Shown in pieces: positions 24,840-30,686 of a stretch of 64,000 nucleotides of DNA. The stretch is from a virus. Position numbers and translations under genes: made by a program. Each line of letters begins with the position of its first letter. Position 1 is the stretch's first letter. Below the pieces are notes generated by a model that worked only from the letters and a program-made list of their open reading frames with translations, was not told where the DNA came from and searched no databases. The stretch spans positions 11,143 through 75,142 of the IMG/VR virus record IMGVR_UViG_3300044712_002165. One strand, written 5' to 3'.

Positions 24840-26303
24840 ATGGTTATTCTGCACGAAACAGGACGGCCGATGCTGGCGAGTGAAGGCGGTCACATCAACC
24901 GCTTCACCGACATCCTCGAATGGGGTTACCGCCTGGCTGAGACGCCGGTCGGCACCCCCGAAAAGAACCCCCGCGGTCTCTGGGAAGCCAGGGGCTGGAA
25001 GGAGTTCGTCCAACACATGCCCGAGCACAAGCGCCCCATCGCGGCGATCATGCTCGAAAACTGCCGTTCCCGCTGGGGCCGGCTGGACGAAGTTACCCGG
25101 ACCACAAGTCTCGGTACCTTTGATAAGTGGATCTTCCCGGTGATTGCGAACATGTCCGAGAACGACGTGATCGACCAGCTCGTCGCCATCCAGCCGATGG
25201 CCGGTCCGGTCAGTCAGATCGTTTACATGGACATCGTCACCGGACGCCGGAAGGGCCGCACGCCCGCTGGCGCGCCGATGTGGCGTGCGCTCCAGGGCGC
25301 GGTTGACCGCGACGACGACGCCGACGAGCTGATCCAGGACGAGACCGGCACCTCGAACGGTTCCGGCGTGATCGTGCTGGAATGGACTCCGATTCGCGCC
25401 GGCACGCTGTCCGGCACCGTCGGCTCCATCTCGGTGGCCGACGACGGCAACGGCAACATCATCAACGTGGCGTCCAACGCTACCGTCGGTACCGTCGTGT
25501 ACCAGGGCACGGGCGCGGGCACGATCACCATCGCGTCGCAGGCGAACGCGAGCTACACGCTCACCTACGCCTACAACTCGGAAGGCAACCTGGCGATCCA
25601 GGACTACGAGATGAAGCTCTCATCGACGCCGGTTACGGCGAAGGTGATGAAGCTGAAGACCCTCTGGTCCGAGGAAGCCGACCAGAACCTCCAGGCGATG
25701 TACAACATCAAGGCCGAGAGCGTCCTGCTCAACGCCCTGACCAACGCGCTCCAGTACCAGAAGCACCGCCAGGTGATCTTCGATCTGCGCGCCAAGGCTG
25801 ACGCCGGCTTCGTCGTCTGGGACGCCATCGCTCCGGCGAACGTCAACTACCAGACGCACAAGTTCTCGATCATCGACGCGTTCGAGACCGCCTCGAACTT
25901 CATCTTCGGTGCCACGAACATGGTCGCCGGCAACTGGGTGCTCCTGGGTCTCCAGGCTGCCACCGTGGTGGCCACGCTGCCTCAGTTCGTGCCGAAGAAC
26001 TCCCGGGTCCAGATGCAGGGCATCACCTACATCGGTGATCTTGGAAATAAGAAAATCTTCTCGGACCCGCACTATCCGAACAACGAGTTCCTCGTCGGCC
26101 ACAAGGGCGACCAGTTCCTCACGACCGGGTACGTTCTGGCGGAATATCAAAAATTGTATACAACGCCCGACGTTGTTCTCCCGGACTTCATCCACCAGCG
26201 CGGCTTCGCCACGAGCTTCGCTCGGAAGATGATCAACTCGAAGATGTTCTGCCGCGGATTGGTTCAGAACTCTCCGACGGCGTTCGGCCAGACCATCGGC
26301 TAA
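24840..26303 (+). CDS. major capsid protein (T4 gp23-like)
   Basis: AIMLEN..LVAIQPMAGPVSQIVY..VTAKVMKLKTLWSEEADQNL.A. Confidence 0.95.
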   Translation: MVILHETGRPMLASEGGHINRFTDILEWGYRLAETPVGTPEKNPRGLWEARGWKEFVQHMPEHKRPIAAIMLENCRSRWGRLDEVTRTTSLGTFDKWIFPVIANMSENDVIDQLVAIQPMAGPVSQIVYMDIVTGRRKGRTPAGAPMWRALQGAVDRDDDADELIQDETGTSNGSGVIVLEWTPIRAGTLSGTVGSISVADDGNGNIINVASNATVGTVVYQGTGAGTITIASQANASYTLTYAYNSEGNLAIQDYEMKLSSTPVTAKVMKLKTLWSEEADQNLQAMYNIKAESVLLNALTNALQYQKHRQVIFDLRAKADAGFVVWDAIAPANVNYQTHKFSIIDAFETASNFIFGATNMVAGNWVLLGLQAATVVATLPQFVPKNSRVQMQGITYIGDLGNKKIFSDPHYPNNEFLVGHKGDQFLTTGYVLAEYQKLYTTPDVVLPDFIHQRGFATSFARKMINSKMFCRGLVQNSPTAFGQTIG

Positions 26304-26321: not shown

Positions 26322-26354
26322 AAAAACCCGCAGCCTCACGGCTGCGGGTTTTTT
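26322..26354. terminator. bidirectional intrinsic terminator
   Basis: AAAAA-CCCGCAGCC-TCAC-GGCTGCGGG-TTTTTT, closing both the capsid operon (+) and the array transcript (-). Confidence 0.9.
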
Positions 26355-26362
26355 GTTTACGT

Positions 26363-27088
26363 TCCGGCCCTTCCTATCCTGTTCGGTCGTCTACCTTCCA
26401 ATCCATGACTTTCCTTTCCTGCCTTTCCGTTCCTTTCCGCAACTTTCCTCTGCGCACCGCTCCACTTCGTTCCATTCCGGCCCTTCCCCTCCTGTCCATT
26501 CAGCTCCCTAGCACTTCTAACCGTTCCTCTCCTGCCCTTCCGTAGCCTTCCCTGCCGGTCCGATCCTTTCCTTTCCCATCAGCTCCTTTCCGAGCCGTTC
26601 CTGCCTTTCCATTAGCGTCCACACCATTCCTGCCGGTCCGGTCCCATCCCTTCCTATCCATTCCGCTTCTCGCCATTCCAATCCTCTCCTGCCGCTCCAC
26701 TCCTCTGACCTCCGGTCCGTTTCTATCCCCGCCGCTCCTTTCCTGCCGGTTCATTCCCCTCCATGCCACTTTGCGACGCTCCACTCCTATCGTCTCCTGC
26801 CGGTCCGTTCCCCTCCATGCCGTTCCTCACCGTTTCACTCCTTGCCTCTCCTGCCGGTCCGATCCTTGCCATTCCAGTCCGCTCCTTTTCGTGCCTTGCC
26901 ATTCCTGCCACTCCGATCCGATTCCTTCCACTGCGTTCCGATTCACTCCCTGCCGTTCCTCTCCTGCCCTTCCTCAACGGTCCCATCCACTCCACTTCTC
27001 TCCACACCATTCCTCACGGCTCCATTCCTGCCTTTCCATTAGCGTCCGATCCTATGCAATCCACAACTGTCCAATCCTGCCGTTCCTT
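26363..27088 (-). ncRNA. pentamer-periodic guide-like RNA array with 13 units of AGGA-(NN-GGA)n-NN-GGC; VIPR-like
   Basis: The + strand parses in unbroken 5-nt register as GCC NN (TCC NN)n TCCT. Unit starts are 26367, 26421, 26480, 26534, 26603, 26632, 26691, 26745, 26799, 26853, 26907, 26966 and 27030. All unit lengths are 5n+4. Confidence 0.8.
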
Positions 27089-27090
27089 GT

Positions 27091-27570
27091 TTACGTTTTG
27101 GTACACCGTTTTCTCACTCTATCCACGGTGTCCCAAATTTCATGAAGGTGCGTGAAGAACGCGTATTTTGCCTTCAGCCTGTCAAGCTCGCGGTAGAGCT
27201 GCTCAAGCAGCACTGTACTGTGCTGCGCGCTACTCATGACCTCGCCCACGGGTCTGTACCCTCCGCCTTGTTCGCGGTCCGTGGTGAGGCTGATCCAGGC
27301 AGGAGCCGGGCTGCCGTTTGACAACGTTATTTCGATCTTACCGACGAGGTCTCTCGCCTCGACGATCCAGTATTTTTGAGCAGCTTCTTGAACATCCCAG
27401 GTAAAGTGCCTGTGGCATTCACTCTGTGGATGCGTGCGGGCAAACTCAACGATGTCGGCTAGGTGAAGTTTGCCGTCTTTGGAAGCAGCGCGGATTTTTT
27501 CGATTTCCCGCGCTGCCTTTTTGAGCCGACGTGGTTCAAAAGCGTTGTCCATTGGGAAGCAGAACTTCAA
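27091..27570 (-). CDS. accessory protein of the RAMP/array cassette
   Basis: GKL...IVEFAR..P.S..H.HFTWD...AA..Y....AR.L. It overlaps the RAMP gene end and its stop abuts the array. Confidence 0.75.
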   Translation of the reverse strand: MKFCFPMDNAFEPRRLKKAAREIEKIRAASKDGKLHLADIVEFARTHPQSECHRHFTWDVQEAAQKYWIVEARDLVGKIEITLSNGSPAPAWISLTTDREQGGGYRPVGEVMSSAQHSTVLLEQLYRELDRLKAKYAFFTHLHEIWDTVDRVRKRCTKT

Positions 27571-28264
27571 AGGAGCCCCATCCGCAGCCGTTGGATTGGC
27601 GTGAGTTCATGCGCCCTTCACCGAGGCCGTTTTGAAGACCCATGCGCCACAGCAAATTCGTCACGTCGTTGTGCGTAAACTGGTCCTGGTCCCATCCGAG
27701 AGTGACGACGGCTTCCCATCCGGGTTTCCACAGAGGGCGCGACTTGATGTCGAAAACTCCCGTAGCCAACCGGCCAGGGCCAAGGTGCTGTTCGGGCTCA
27801 CCTTTGGTAATCCGAACGAGCGGGGTATTGTCGAACATGTCGTAGCCATCGGCAATGCACCAGATCGACATTTTGGCCAGCGTCATTTTGTAATCAACCA
27901 GACGGCAAACAGAGATGATGCCGCAACGGATTGCAGTGGCGTTAAAGCCGTTCCAACCTTCGTTGGACACGTAGAGGGCGTCCTTCCAGAGCTGGTCAAA
28001 GTCCTTGGGAGCGCGTGAACCTTTCTTGGTCTTGGAAGTCGTTCCTTCGCGCTGTCTGCCCATGATTGCCTCCTGGGACTTGGTGCTGAACCGCTGAATG
28101 ACCAAAGGCGTGGTGCCTCGAATCGTGAACTGTGCGCGCACCATGTTCGGCGCATTGACCTGCACCTCTTTGGTGACGACTCGACTGGTTTCGTCCGGTG
28201 CGGGCGATCCGTTCGTCGCGGCTGATGTTCCGTTGTTGCGTGTCGGTTTGAGCGTTGCTTTCAT
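27536..28264 (-). CDS. Cas7/RAMP-like RNA-binding protein (Vipr-like)
   Basis: beta1 QFTIRGTTPLVIQ, GFNATAIRCGI (cf. RAMP iPgsslKG), and a C-terminal Gly-rich loop GLGEGRMNSRQSNGCGWGSFEV. Confidence 0.78.
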   Translation of the reverse strand: MKATLKPTRNNGTSAATNGSPAPDETSRVVTKEVQVNAPNMVRAQFTIRGTTPLVIQRFSTKSQEAIMGRQREGTTSKTKKGSRAPKDFDQLWKDALYVSNEGWNGFNATAIRCGIISVCRLVDYKMTLAKMSIWCIADGYDMFDNTPLVRITKGEPEQHLGPGRLATGVFDIKSRPLWKPGWEAVVTLGWDQDQFTHNDVTNLLWRMGLQNGLGEGRMNSRQSNGCGWGSFEVLLPNGQRF

Positions 28265-28290
28265 TGTGTTGTACTCTGGGGTACGGCGCA

Positions 28291-28363
28291 TACATTTTGT
28301 AAACGTTTACATTTTGTCAAACAGTTTTCTGCAATTGACGCATGCGCTGCTGAACCGTAACCT
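28291..28363. promoter_or_regulatory. divergent promoter region
   Basis: Minus strand: TTGACA (28315-28320) followed by the palindrome TGTAAACGTTTACA. Plus strand: TTGACG-N17-TAACCT. Confidence 0.55.
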
Positions 28364-28372
28364 TCCGACAGG

Positions 28373-29017
28373 GTGGAAACCAAAGCTCAGCAGATCGCGG
28401 AGATGCTTTTGGAGCACAGGCGCTACGAAGCGTTACGTCCGGCTACGCCGCTTACCGCAGCGCAGCTCCTGGAGATGCCGCAGCACTACCCGGGCAACGT
28501 CATCTATCAGTCCAAGCTCAAATTCGTGCCGATCTCGCGCCGGAATTTCGGCAGCCACATCGTGATCGGCCAGGACGGTTTCTACACCTACGTCGTCGAT
28601 CTTTCCCAGACGACGGGTTTCGTTTTCGTCAGCGCGGACATCGAGTCGGAGGCGCTCGAATTCGTCCCTGTCATGCAACTTCAGCTGCGCAAGTCGTCGC
28701 TTGACGGACTGCGCCAAGCCTTTCGCCTGCGTATACAGGAAGAGCATGCGCGCAAGGGCATCGCGACGACGTGGTACGTGTTGTTTGCTCAGACGTTCGG
28801 CGGTATCGTTTCCGACTTTGAGCACCTGGAAGGTGGCAAGAATTTGTGGCGTGCTTTTGTAGACAAAGCTGCGTACCGCGGACTGACGATTCACGCTGTT
28901 GACACTTTGACAGGTGAATCAGTTCCAGTAGGCCCGGAAACGTCGGATGATGCGATCTGGTCAACGGATCAGAGTAAGAGGAGTACCGTTTTGGTACTTC
29001 GCAGGTCAGCGCGTTAG
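28373..29017 (+). CDS. GNAT-like acetyltransferase
   Basis: IQEEHARKGIATTWY (R/QxxGxA acetyl-CoA motif), IVSD..H.EGGKNLW. Confidence 0.6.
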   Translation: METKAQQIAEMLLEHRRYEALRPATPLTAAQLLEMPQHYPGNVIYQSKLKFVPISRRNFGSHIVIGQDGFYTYVVDLSQTTGFVFVSADIESEALEFVPVMQLQLRKSSLDGLRQAFRLRIQEEHARKGIATTWYVLFAQTFGGIVSDFEHLEGGKNLWRAFVDKAAYRGLTIHAVDTLTGESVPVGPETSDDAIWSTDQSKRSTVLVLRRSAR

Positions 29018-29024
29018 GTAGTGC

Positions 29025-30383
29025 ATGCGCACTACGATTGACTCTCCCGCCATTGAGTCCGCTGAGTTGCCGTCTGGCCGTCGAGTATACGTAGCCGACG
29101 TTCCTGTACAGGAAAACCCTACAGACATCGAAGTCTGGGAACCCCAGCACGAGGTCTGGCTGGCTCCGAAGGGTGCCAGTACCGTACCGGGCAAAGGCAC
29201 TCAGTTCAACCCTCTGCGCGTCGGTACACCCCAAGAGTACGACGCTGTTTTCACGCGTCCGCTTGAAGCGATTCGCACGTCACCCAAGGTGTTTCGACTG
29301 TACCCTGGCGACTACTACACCCGCGGCGTCTGGGCGTTCGAGGCGCAGAACTACCACGCCATCGGTTCAGGCGAATCCTTGATCGGTTCAGGCAGCAGGC
29401 GAACAACGGTTCACCTGGACGCTGACAGCGCTCCCTTTACCACCAACGGTCAGCCTCGGCCGGACATCGGCGTCCTGTGGGTGGGAACGTACATGGGTCG
29501 GGCCGAGTACATGCGGGTTGAAGGTCTGTGCCTGCACGGTCACCAGGACAAGTTCCCGGCGGAGAAGCTGGTCACCTCAGGCGTGCGCGTCACGGGCAGC
29601 CATTTCGTCATCCGAGACGTGGGCGTACAAGGTCTGCGCGGCAGCGTGCCGGCGCAGTACGAAGCCTTCCCGATCTCGTCGATCAATTTCGAGGGCCTAC
29701 CGCTGACCAATCCTGCGGACGGCGGCGGTCTGATCGAGGACTGCTGGACGCGCAGCATGGCGGACAACTCGTACGTCAGCGCCATCAGCCTCGGGTTCCG
29801 TCCATGCGGTCGTCCAATCGTTCCCAGCGTCATCCAGCGCTGTCACGTGGACAGCGGACGCGGCAACTACTTCGGCTTCTCGGCGTGCCATTCGACCACG
29901 ATCCGCGACTCTTCCTGCCGCGGCGTGAAGCAGGCCGTGTACAACGACACAGACAGCGTCCAGGACCTGCTGGTCTACGACAATCAGTTCGAGACCGAGT
30001 ACGCCGGCATGTCGTTGATCGCTGTCGAAGCTTCGGCCGGCAAGAGCGTCGTGAAGGTTCAGCGCAACAGGTTCACGTTCGTGCCGACTGGCGCGTATGA
30101 TCTTCCAGCCATCGCCTTGGTTGATCAGGCAGGTGCGCGCATCAGCAACATCCTGGTCAGTGAAAACGTGTTCGTGGCACCGCCGTCGAATCGGTTTGCT
30201 TTGGCCAGCATCAAGGCAGCACAGCTGTTCAACGTGAAGATCGTAAACAATGTGATCTCTTCTGGAACCGTTTACAGGAACCTCGTTGATCCGACGCCGA
30301 AGACCAACGTTACTCTGGCGTCCAACCACGAGTACAACGGCGGCCTGGTAGGGATTTACCAGCCCTTGGCAATCGGTAGTTAG
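29025..30383 (+). CDS. right-handed beta-helix protein (tailspike/depolymerase-like)
   Basis: LYPGDY..LIGSG, repeated I.dc/N.F beta-helix rungs. Confidence 0.7.
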   Translation: MRTTIDSPAIESAELPSGRRVYVADVPVQENPTDIEVWEPQHEVWLAPKGASTVPGKGTQFNPLRVGTPQEYDAVFTRPLEAIRTSPKVFRLYPGDYYTRGVWAFEAQNYHAIGSGESLIGSGSRRTTVHLDADSAPFTTNGQPRPDIGVLWVGTYMGRAEYMRVEGLCLHGHQDKFPAEKLVTSGVRVTGSHFVIRDVGVQGLRGSVPAQYEAFPISSINFEGLPLTNPADGGGLIEDCWTRSMADNSYVSAISLGFRPCGRPIVPSVIQRCHVDSGRGNYFGFSACHSTTIRDSSCRGVKQAVYNDTDSVQDLLVYDNQFETEYAGMSLIAVEASAGKSVVKVQRNRFTFVPTGAYDLPAIALVDQAGARISNILVSENVFVAPPSNRFALASIKAAQLFNVKIVNNVISSGTVYRNLVDPTPKTNVTLASNHEYNGGLVGIYQPLAIGS

Positions 30384-30386
30384 GTC

Positions 30387-30686
30387 GTGGGCGAGATGAC
30401 TCCATGGGCTCTTGCCGGCCCCCGACAGCCTCAGCGTGTTCGACGCCGCGTGCAGTACAAGCGCGATCCCTACTGGTTCGCGTGGGCGTCGGTCACGCAA
30501 GGCACGAACCAGCTGCCAGTAATGATTCCGTCTACGGGACCTGGCGCAGCTGGATCGACGTTTCCAAACAACCAGCCGCAGGTTGAGCAGGTTGAAATCA
30601 CCGTTGAAGGCTTGCCTCCGACGACGTATGGCTCGAATATGGGTCGGCCGGCTGGACCAGGCGCGAATCTGCCGGGTGGTATATGA
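30387..30686 (+). CDS. hypothetical late protein
   Basis: GTG 4 nt after TAGTTA. Confidence 0.55.
   Translation: MGEMTPWALAGPRQPQRVRRRVQYKRDPYWFAWASVTQGTNQLPVMIPSTGPGAAGSTFPNNQPQVEQVEITVEGLPPTTYGSNMGRPAGPGANLPGGI

What the first reader, a model, noticed from the sequence alone, without database searches (positions are those of the whole stretch)
26322..28320. Phage-encoded RNA-guided system: lone Cas7/RAMP-like gene, accessory gene and pentamer-periodic guide array (VIPR-like, GGA variant)
Seen: a compact minus-strand unit runs promoter, 242-aa ORF, 159-aa ORF, ~730-nt non-coding array, bidirectional terminator. It converges on the capsid gene. The 242-aa protein has IRGTTPLV at the N-terminus and the Gly-rich loop GLGEGR..GCGWGSFEV at the C-terminus. 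Known: these are hallmarks of RAMP/Cas7-family RNA-binding backbone proteins, which polymerise along guides with a fixed nucleotide step. No cas1/2/5/6/8/10, nuclease or classical CRISPR array is in the window. Inference: each protomer binds one constant triplet and displays one variable dinucleotide, giving programmable recognition without repeats and spacers. It would probably silence or block competitor phage or host genes. This matches my recollection of recently reported VIPR systems (GGY/NN), which should be verified. The GGA-dominated triplet here would be a variant.
Basis: partly seen in the sequence, partly recalled or inferred. Interest (0 to 1): 0.97.

Follow-up and report, generated by a model that had tools for sequence, protein, structure and literature searches.

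The report
Phage VIPR system with GGA-type guides
An uncultured soil phage carries a VIPR system (a CRISPR-like, RNA-guided DNA silencer first described in 2026) whose 13 guide RNAs use G-G-A instead of the published G-G-pyrimidine spacer letters, a natural variant of a letter that the model system cannot tolerate.

Summary
On the minus strand, window 28264-26322 holds a 242-aa gene, a 153-aa gene, a 712-nt array and a two-way terminator, next to the major capsid gene.

The 242-aa protein folds as a Cas7/Csm3-type RAMP. It is a distant relative of the tested Vipr protein of coliphage SUSP1.

In 76 of 80 related viral loci, a 5-nt-periodic G-rich array lies beside the gene on the same strand. 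The second gene is a conserved partner (vap).

The array has 13 units, each CA+(GGANN)n+GG and 5n+4 nt long. This fits the published 'staggered' VIPR array type.

So this is a member of a known, recently published class (bioRxiv 10.64898/2026.04.26.720920). The scan has already met the class in at least 308 genomes.

What differs is the third repeat letter. It is A in 77% of repeats here, against C or T in about 84% of repeats in relatives.
- Only four independent GGA lineages turned up.
- All four carry Asn at the G-loop position that aligns with SUSP1 C173, which lines the pyrimidine pocket.
- The link is not strict.

Targets are unknown. The one lead is guide 13, which matches a conserved motif of the phage's own capsid gene at 16 of 20 letters. 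No RNA data exist.

The parts
27536..28264 (-). vipr gene: a 242-aa single-RRM RAMP protein (an alternative start at 28291 gives 251 aa)
   Evidence: AlphaFold model has pLDDT 83. Foldseek and VIA-align top hits are all Csm3/Cmr4/Cas7. An HMM of the family hits SUSP1 Vipr at E 4e-4. hhalign gives 74% probability, E 2.7e-5. There are more than 415 unnamed homologues.
27091..27552 (-). vap-like accessory gene, 153 aa, overlapping the vipr stop by 17 nt
   Evidence: tblastn finds a homologue, nearly always on the vipr strand, in 95 of about 160 related loci. PHROG 15946, function unknown. Model pLDDT is 93.8, with only weak forkhead/MarR winged-helix hints at E>1. It is not homologous to SUSP1 vap1.
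26368..27079 (-). vrRNA array: 13 staggered units, each CA + (GGANN)n + GG
   Evidence: Phase tracking and unit list. Periodicity z = 11.2. The same GG-CA-GG boundary occurs in relatives with GGC, GGT or GGA repeats. As RNA it folds less stably than shuffles, z +1.98.
27080..27095 (-). array leader: a CGTAAACA motif that overlaps the vap stop codon, followed by a partial first unit
26368..26421 (-). unit 13, the one guide with a statistically supported match
   Evidence: Its dinucleotides read AA AA AT TT AG GA CC CA TA AG. They fit 9 of 10 codons of KKIFSDPHYP.
26049..26078 (+). site in the phage's own major capsid gene that resembles the guide-13 target (16/20 letters, in frame, wobble base skipped)
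26322..26354 (.). two-way intrinsic terminator shared by the capsid gene and the VIPR cassette
   Evidence: Sequence read; minus-strand hit. Homology with relatives runs through the capsid gene to about 26355.
28298..28320 (-). region upstream of vipr: a TTGACA hexamer and a 14-nt palindrome, TGTAAACGTTTACA
   Evidence: Sequence read; 17-nt direct repeat; no sigma-70 promoter called

Best explanation
This is a VIPR (Viral Interference Programmable Repeat) system of the staggered-array kind. It sits as an accessory cassette just after the capsid-gene terminator of an uncultured T4-like soil phage.

Inferred from the published model system
- The array is transcribed with, or just after, vipr and vap.
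- It yields about 13 guide RNAs of roughly 50-65 nt.
- Vipr protomers polymerise along each RNA, one per pentamer. Each buries G-G-A and exposes the two variable bases.
- The filament binds double-stranded DNA that reads NN-x-NN-x, skipping one base in three, and blocks transcription there.
- The likely targets are genes of rival phages or other mobile elements. The conserved small partner protein assists.

Shown here
- The protein fold, its distant homology to SUSP1 Vipr, and the array grammar.
- The gene-array linkage across the family.
- A 1-nt-skip signal for the family as a whole.

Specific to this locus
- The buried third letter is adenine, not a pyrimidine.
- I infer that a changed pocket reads it. 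The pocket includes Asn212, which aligns with SUSP1 C173.
For: Fold and homology
- The fold is RAMP.
- hhalign pairs R176 with SUSP1 R138, E216 with D177 and R218 with R179. All three are RNA-contact residues in the cryo-EM paper, and R176 and R218 are invariant and E216 nearly invariant (at least 90%) in the family.

Linkage
- 76 of 80 homologous viral loci have a same-strand 5-nt array next to the gene.
- The vap homologue is present in 95 loci.
- The GG-CA-GG unit boundary is shared across the family. It fits the 'staggered' arrays of fig. S18.

Family-wide test of the code (699 unique guides against about 3 Mb of masked local viral DNA)
- Guides of at least 10 NN with at least 80% match number 22 under a 1-nt skip.
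- The same count is 1, 4 and 3 under skips of 0, 2 and 3.
- Eight permutations of NN order give 2-7; reversed order gives 4.
- 12 of the 22 hits lie in vipr genes of other loci, in the wobble-skipping phase.

Accessory status
- The cassette is absent from five close relatives' records, and synteny breaks exactly at 26360-28450.
- No guide matches the phage's own genome above noise, apart from guide 13.

The GGA letter
- Third base A reaches at least 77% in WIN, L019, L261 and L202/L213. All of these have Asn212.
- 67 of 71 loci with under 20% A at the third base (nearly all GGY) have Val there.
Against: - There are no RNA data: the phage appears in four rhizosphere DNA runs only. Transcription, processing and RNP formation are therefore all inferred.
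- No credible target was found for 12 of the 13 guides. Searched were IMG/VR (four exact scans), 1.25 Mb of related loci and a 211-kb close relative.
- Homology to SUSP1 Vipr covers only 54 columns at 74% probability.
- SUSP1 W178 aligns with Gly217 here.
- The paper does not list staggered arrays among the architectures it confirmed by sequencing.
- Asn212 is not sufficient for GGA. L209 and L212 have Asn with 80% GGC, L007 is mixed, and L178 reads 58% A with Val.
- Several units have degenerate pentamers and could be decaying.
Confidence: 0.82

Rival explanations
1. The cassette is a VIPR relic or a decoy. Either the array no longer guides anything, or it acts as a sponge or orphan RNA set that engages another phage's Vipr rather than silencing targets itself.
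For: Twelve of 13 guides have no detectable target. Many pentamers lack GG: unit 6 has 6 of 10 and unit 1 has three degenerate pentamers. Units 1 and 9 share their 3' ends, and unit 10 looks like two units fused. Published work shows that satellites and phages carry solo vrRNAs that redirect other VIPRs.
Against: vipr and vap are intact, and the residues conserved across the family are all present. The 5n+4 unit grammar is kept in all 13 units. Internal degeneracy is reported as normal for vrRNAs. Failing to find targets in limited exact-match scans is weak evidence.
Confidence: 0.08
2. The system regulates the phage's own genes. Guide 13 binds the phage's own capsid gene about 300 bp away and tunes late gene expression.
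For: Guide 13 matches the phage's capsid gene at 16 of 20 letters, in frame, fitting 9 of 10 codons. No permutation out of 1500, and no random draw out of 1500, reached that score. If the last, non-random dinucleotide belongs to a handle, the match is 16 of 18. The guide fits this phage's capsid peptide (9 of 10 codons) better than that of close relative G005 (KKVFADPHYP, about 7 of 10); the 61 relatives' capsid sites were compared letter by letter only, and none beats 16/20.
Against: The published surveys found no self-targets at 80% or above. Two whole dinucleotides are unpaired, one of them internal. Silencing one's own capsid gene looks costly. Only one of 13 guides shows this. An earlier scan note says hosts tolerate 80% matches (unchecked).
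Confidence: 0.07
3. The tract is a plain G/A-rich simple repeat (for example G-quadruplex-forming DNA or a recombination hotspot) that sits next to an unrelated RNA-binding gene by chance.
For: GG every 5 nt could in principle form two-tier quadruplexes. There is no expression evidence.
Against: The gene and the array travel together on the same strand in 76 of 80 loci across many phyla. The variable positions are confined to two of five bases, with a strict 5n+4 unit grammar. Family guides show a skip-1-specific excess of matches.
Confidence: 0.02

Closest known systems
VIPR systems with 'staggered' vrRNA arrays (bioRxiv 10.64898/2026.04.26.720920, fig. S18; type not stated in the text held)
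   Same: A lone Vipr RAMP gene, a small vap gene and a long same-strand array. In that array, one vrRNA ends where the next begins with a 1-nt register shift. Here the boundary is GG|CA|GG and all units are 5n+4 nt long. The setting is viral.
   Different: The third repeat letter is A rather than a pyrimidine. The paper reports the alternative consensus forms NNNGG, YNNNG and NNNNG but does not name a GGA type. Its text lists the ribozyme-spaced and single-vrRNA architectures, not the staggered one, as confirmed by small-RNA sequencing.
Type II VIPR of Escherichia phage SUSP1 (Vipr, vap1 and four vrRNAs); cryo-EM in 10.64898/2026.04.26.720927
   Same: Distant sequence homology over the thumb and G-loop. 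The equivalents of R138, D177 and R179 are conserved. The repeat has a 5-nt period with two leading G. The family's guides follow the 1-nt skip rule.
   Different: - Overall similarity is low: only 54 columns align, at 28% identity.
- The G-loop carries an 8-residue insert.
- W178 aligns with Gly.
- There is no structured 3' tail or pseudoknot; the units abut directly.
- The vap is unrelated to vap1.
- SUSP1's pocket 'sterically excludes purines', and a GGY>GGA substitution was among the motif changes tested there; the text says perturbing the GGY motif abolished silencing. Here GGA is the native letter.
Cas7-family backbone subunits of class 1 CRISPR effectors (Csm3, Cmr4, type VII Cas7)
   Same: Same RRM/RAMP fold with a G-rich loop and a thumb (VIA-align: 9g9a_D Z 10.4, rmsd 3.4 over 143 residues; 6s6b_I Z 10.2). 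Both polymerise along a guide with a fixed step.
   Different: The two cassette genes are not cas genes and no CRISPR repeat-spacer array is present in the window. The step is 5 nt rather than 6. Three of every five guide bases are buried. The protein is a minimal, single-RRM form.

Membership tests
VIPR | Vipr protein is a minimal RAMP (RRM core, glycine-rich loop, thumb) | tested here: met
   Model pLDDT 83. Foldseek's best match is a Csm chain, 8wfx_I, E 7e-6, and the top rows are all Csm3/Cas7. In the VIA-align wide search the top 39 rows are all CRISPR RAMPs, best Z 10.4. The G-loop G..GEGR....G.GWG.F is invariant across 32 homologues.
VIPR | Sequence relationship to an experimentally characterised Vipr (SUSP1) | tested here: met
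   The family HMM finds the SUSP1 vipr ORF as the only hit in the 90.7-kb phage genome, at E 4e-4. hhalign gives E 2.7e-5, probability 74%, over 54 columns. This is weak but specific.
VIPR | RNA-contact residues that hold G1, G2 and Y3 are conserved | tested here: inconclusive
   R176 aligns with R138, E216 with D177 and R218 with R179; R176 and R218 are invariant and E216 nearly invariant in the family. W178 aligns with Gly217, so a different Trp (W229) may do its job. The equivalents of H17, E71 and M72 lie outside the aligned stretch.
VIPR | Tandem 5-nt repeats with conserved GG and hypervariable NN beside the vipr gene, on the same strand | tested here: met
   for the window; 76 of 80 relatives.
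VIPR (canonical GGY consensus) | The third repeat base is a pyrimidine | tested here: not met
   Here A 77%, C 11%, G 9%, T 4% (n=82). Pooled relatives give C 70%, T 14%, A 10% (n=4174). The paper allows 'a related consensus' such as NNNGG. This therefore marks a variant rather than excluding the locus from the class.
VIPR | Small accessory gene (vap) in the same operon | tested here: met
   A conserved 145-200-aa partner follows vipr in 95 loci. Which of vap1-6 it is could not be decided. It is not vap1.
VIPR | Minimal locus without cas genes or a CRISPR array; viral setting | tested here: met
   Tandem Repeats Finder finds no repeat-spacer array in the 64-kb window. The genome is a 75-kb viral contig with a gp23-like capsid gene. 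Cas genes were not searched for window-wide with profiles.
VIPR | Guides recognise DNA by the 1-nt skip rule (NN-x-NN) | tested here: inconclusive
   For the family as a whole the rule is supported: 22 long matches under skip 1, against 1-4 under other skips and 2-7 for permuted guides. For this window's own guides there is only guide 13, at 16 of 20 letters on the phage's own capsid gene.
VIPR | vrRNAs are expressed, processed and bound by Vipr | not testable with these tools
   No RNA run holds this DNA. The contigs laid on the region are DNA only.
CRISPR-Cas class 1 (type III/VII Cas7) | Repeat-spacer array and partner cas genes (Cas5, Cas6, Cas10 or Cas8, Cas1-2) | tested here: not met
   There is no CRISPR array. 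The two cassette genes match no Pfam or NCBIfam Cas family. Close relatives of the phage lack the whole cassette.

The most novel reading that the evidence does not exclude
The third scaffold letter works as an orthogonality code.

Vipr lineages that changed their pocket, through Asn at the position aligned with SUSP1 C173 plus changes in helix 1, read GGA instead of GGY. This would have two effects. Their RNPs could no longer be loaded with, or hijacked by, the GGY decoy vrRNAs that satellites and rival phages deploy. Their own guides could not be used by a rival's Vipr.

GGA arrays would then be the trace of an arms race over guide-scaffold specificity. They would also offer a ready-made second, non-cross-talking VIPR channel.
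Probability: 0.25. Interest if true: 0.8.

Novelty: new variant of a known kind. Interest (0 to 1): 0.5.

Why it matters
VIPR was described only in 2026 and is being developed as a programmable DNA-binding tool.

In the model SUSP1 system the third scaffold base sits in a pocket said to exclude purines, and the paper reports that perturbing the GGY motif (a GGY>GGA change was among those tested) abolished silencing. A natural system that uses GGA shows this letter can be re-specified.

The comparison across 84 loci points to a short list of residues to test. Asn212, which aligns with C173, comes first; position 119 in helix 1 comes second.

If the switch can be transplanted, it would give two VIPR channels that do not cross-talk. 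It would also help explain how phages escape decoy guide RNAs.

The locus adds a T4-like soil phage to the known carriers. It also provides one lead that such guides are written against conserved capsid-gene motifs.

Tried and rejected
Target searches
- Exact gapped-pattern scans of IMG/VR for guides 10, 5, 8 (core) and 13 gave 0 hits each.
- Mismatch-tolerant scans were also run on the phage's own 75 kb, on 1.25 Mb of VIPR loci, on 0.84 Mb around 70 capsid relatives, and on a 211-kb close relative. Nothing rose above the skip-0 and skip-2 controls, apart from guide 13.

- I consider this doubtful.
- Unit 10 contains an internal GGACCGGCAGGG pseudo-boundary with a 1-nt insertion, so the peptide spans what are probably two guides.
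- No exact target exists in IMG/VR.

Other searches that gave nothing
- Pfam and NCBIfam have no family for either protein.
- A PDB sequence search found nothing.
- Rfam found nothing in the cassette.
- vap fold searches gave only forkhead/MarR hits at E>1, and no Z above 5.5.
- No sigma-70 promoter was called.

Expression and host
- No RNA holder is listed among the sequencing runs.
- Contigs from four rhizosphere runs are identical to the window, so nothing could be learned about array turnover.
- Prokaryotic carriers of the family span many phyla.

Tools
Contigs of Logan-only homologues such as P0008, which has the QNG motif, could therefore not be inspected.
Full report
**What is there**

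The window is bases 11143-75142 of a single 75,142-bp viral contig. On the minus strand, four features follow one another.
- A 242-aa ORF at 28264..27536. An earlier ATG at 28291 would give 251 aa.
- A 153-aa ORF at 27552..27091. Its ATG overlaps the first gene's stop by 17 nt.
- A 712-nt G/A-rich tract at 27079..26368.
- A 9-bp GC hairpin at 26348-26327, flanked by an A run and a T run.

The hairpin faces the stop codon of a plus-strand gp23-like major capsid gene at 24840-26303.

**The periodicity is far beyond chance**
- Lag-5 autocorrelation is 0.509, against 0.328 ± 0.016 in 2000 shuffles, so z = 11.2.
- No other stretch of the genome clearly shows it; one window at 28179 only just passes.
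- A phase tracker shows that the GG register slips by one base at regular GG|CA|GG joints. This gives 13 units of the form CA+(GGANN)n+GG.
- The unit lengths are 49, 64, 59, 54, 54, 54, 54, 59, 29, 69, 54, 59 and 54 nt, all 5n+4.
- As RNA the tract folds less stably than its shuffles (z +1.98). That suits an RNA meant to be coated by protein.

**The first protein**
- It has no Pfam, NCBIfam or PDB sequence match. It does have more than 415 unnamed homologues.
- A model built on 32 homologues reaches pLDDT 83.
- Foldseek returns only Csm3/Cas7-type chains at the top; the best is 8wfx_I at E 7e-6.
- An independent all-against-all structural search gives 9g9a_D (a Csm complex chain) Z 10.4 and 6s6b_I (a Cmr complex chain) Z 10.2. 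Its first 39 rows are all CRISPR RAMP proteins.
- An HMM of the family finds one hit in the 90.7-kb genome of coliphage SUSP1, at E 4e-4. The hit is the ORF whose numbering reproduces the residues named in the cryo-EM paper.
- hhalign aligns window residues 173-235 with SUSP1 135-188 (E 2.7e-5, probability 74%).
- That alignment pairs R176 with R138, E216 with D177 and R218 with R179. All three are RNA contacts in SUSP1; R176 and R218 are invariant and E216 nearly invariant in this family.

**The published system**

VIPR is described in three 2026 preprints.
- It consists of a lone Vipr RAMP, a vap gene and vrRNAs built of GGY/NN pentamers.
- One protomer binds each repeat.
- It binds double-stranded DNA by a 1-nt skip rule and silences transcription of rival mobile elements.
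- The first paper lists 'staggered arrays with overlapping vrRNAs', whose neighbours share a 1-nt overlap (fig. S18 legend). The 5n+4 grammar found here fits that description.

**Linkage across the family**
- Of 80 viral loci encoding a homologue, 76 have a G-rich 5-nt-periodic array next to the gene on the same strand.
- The GG-CA-GG joint recurs whether the third base is C (L003, L032), T (L027) or A (L019).
- The second gene has a homologue, nearly always on the vipr strand, in 95 of about 160 loci. It models confidently (pLDDT 93.8) but matches no solved fold clearly. The only hints are weak forkhead/MarR winged-helix hits.
- It is not related to SUSP1 vap1.
- Prokaryotic carriers span Planctomycetota, Pseudomonadota, Acidobacteriota, Bacteroidota and other phyla.

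**Does this family use the published code?**

I parsed 788 guides (699 unique) from 285 arrays and searched them, with gapped 14-base seeds, against about 3 Mb of local viral DNA with the arrays masked.
- Unique seed pairs numbered 49, 85, 48 and 47 for skips of 0, 1, 2 and 3.
- Guides of at least 10 NN with at least 80% match numbered 1, 22, 4 and 3.
- Permuting the NN order within guides gave 2-7 such hits in eight runs. Reversing the order gave 4.
- Twelve of the 22 hits lie in vipr genes of other loci, in the phase that skips the wobble base. [quoted passage not shown]

The 1-nt skip rule therefore holds statistically for this family.

**What is unusual: the third letter**
- Here it is A in 77% of 82 phased repeats. 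Pooled relatives show C 70%, T 14% and A 10% (n=4174).
- The cryo-EM paper says the SUSP1 Y3 pocket 'sterically excludes purines'.
- The first paper tested GGY>GGA among its motif substitutions and states that perturbing the GGY motif abolished silencing.
- Among 84 non-redundant loci with at least 15 phased repeats, A dominates in WIN, L019, L261 and L202/L213. A scan of metagenome contigs for the QNG motif supplied the last three.
- All of these carry Asn212, where 67 of 71 loci with under 20% A at the third base (nearly all GGY) have Val. They also have Val or Thr at position 119, where 67 of 71 have Ala.
- By hhalign, Asn212 aligns with SUSP1 C173, one of the residues named as lining the Y3 pocket.
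- A quick maximum-likelihood tree places the GGA loci in at least three places. Well-supported branches force at least two origins. The window's branch is long and its placement is unsure.
- The link is not strict. L209 and L212 have Asn with 80% GGC, L007 is mixed, and L178 reads 58% A with Val.

Asn212 is therefore a candidate, probably permissive, determinant. It is not proven.

**Targets**
- No guide matches the phage's own genome above the skip-0 and skip-2 controls. This agrees with the absence of self-targets reported in the paper.
- Exact scans of IMG/VR for four guides found nothing.
- The exception is guide 13. Its dinucleotides fit the phage's own capsid gene at 26049-26078: in frame, wobble skipped, 16 of 20 letters, and 9 of 10 codons of KKIFSDPHYP.
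- That score was never reached in 1500 permutations or 1500 random draws of dinucleotides (maximum 8, at 0.2%). Every other guide sits at the null level.
- The motif KK[IV]F[AV]DPHYP is conserved in 61 capsid relatives. None matches better than 16 of 20.
- The two mismatched codons would both need to be AGx.
- My reading is that the intended target is a capsid allele not present in the data I could reach. A self-regulatory role is a minor rival. I rate this lead as moderate, not settled.

**Genomic setting**
- Five close relatives (capsid protein 88-90% identical, one record 93% complete) have no Vipr homologue.
- tblastx synteny with 11 relatives runs through the capsid gene to about 26355. 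It then finds nothing for 26360-28450.
- The cassette is therefore an accessory insertion that reuses the capsid terminator in the opposite direction.
- The same phage sequence, without differences, is present in four rhizosphere metagenomes. No RNA run holds it.

**Verdict**

The locus belongs to a class published in 2026, which this scan has already met in at least 308 genomes, including other non-GGY scaffolds. The class itself is therefore not new.

The GGA scaffold, its rarity, and the residue that covaries with it and maps to the published pyrimidine pocket make this a variant worth a bench test. Expression, processing, binding and the real targets remain inferred.

Noticed in passing
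window 27095-27088 (-), 26361-26354 (-), and genome-wide: The octamer YGTAAACA occurs 44 times in the 75-kb genome, against about 5 expected. ACGTAAACAA with up to one mismatch occurs 19 times, against 1.95 expected. Copies bracket the array exactly: one overlaps the vap stop codon and one lies just before the terminator. Three copies are followed directly by a hairpin. This may be a phage-specific promoter, processing or stop-context signal.
   Followed up: partly
window 28311-28298 (-): A perfect 14-nt palindrome, TGTAAACGTTTACA, made of two inverted GTAAAC half-sites, lies between a TTGACA hexamer and the vipr start. It could be an operator.
   Followed up: no
window 28179-28278: A marginal 5-nt periodicity (0.42) falls inside the poorly conserved, low-confidence N-terminal 30 residues of Vipr. 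Many relatives have a second array directly upstream of vipr, so this may be the remnant of one. The true start codon may then lie further downstream.
   Followed up: no
window 27046-27031 and 26620-26604; 26853-26746: Units 1 and 9 share their last 17 nt (GGACGCTAATGGAAAGG). Units 5 and 6 are paralogues that share 5 of 10 dinucleotides. The array has therefore grown partly by internal duplication followed by divergence.
   Followed up: partly
window 26603-26535 (unit 10): The 69-nt unit contains an internal GGACCGGCAGGG. This is a unit joint that has gained one base and so stays in register. The unit is probably two guides fused.
   Followed up: partly
L118 array; targets in L041, L139, L144, L177, L184, L186 and others: One guide of locus L118 matches a conserved site inside the vipr genes of six other loci, with matches at the same position in four more, at 16 of 20 letters, antisense, in the wobble-skipping phase. 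A guide of L072 hits the vipr 5' end in L010, L044 and L073. These look like VIPR-against-VIPR conflict.
   Followed up: partly
L093 array -> L348:14189 (= G005, a close relative of this phage): A guide from an unrelated 75-kb viral contig matches, at 17 of 20 letters and in frame, a 292-aa ORF 3.7 kb downstream of the capsid gene in a close relative of the window phage. This phage family may itself be a VIPR target.
   Followed up: no
L161:176-425: A further relative with the QNG motif (its vipr is cut off at the contig end) has an array whose pentamers read G-[G/C/A]-A-NN. The second G is relaxed but the third base is still A.
   Followed up: no
window 26360-30400 compared with relatives L299-L354: The stretch downstream of the capsid terminator is a variable accessory region across this phage family. 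Each relative carries different genes there.
   Followed up: partly
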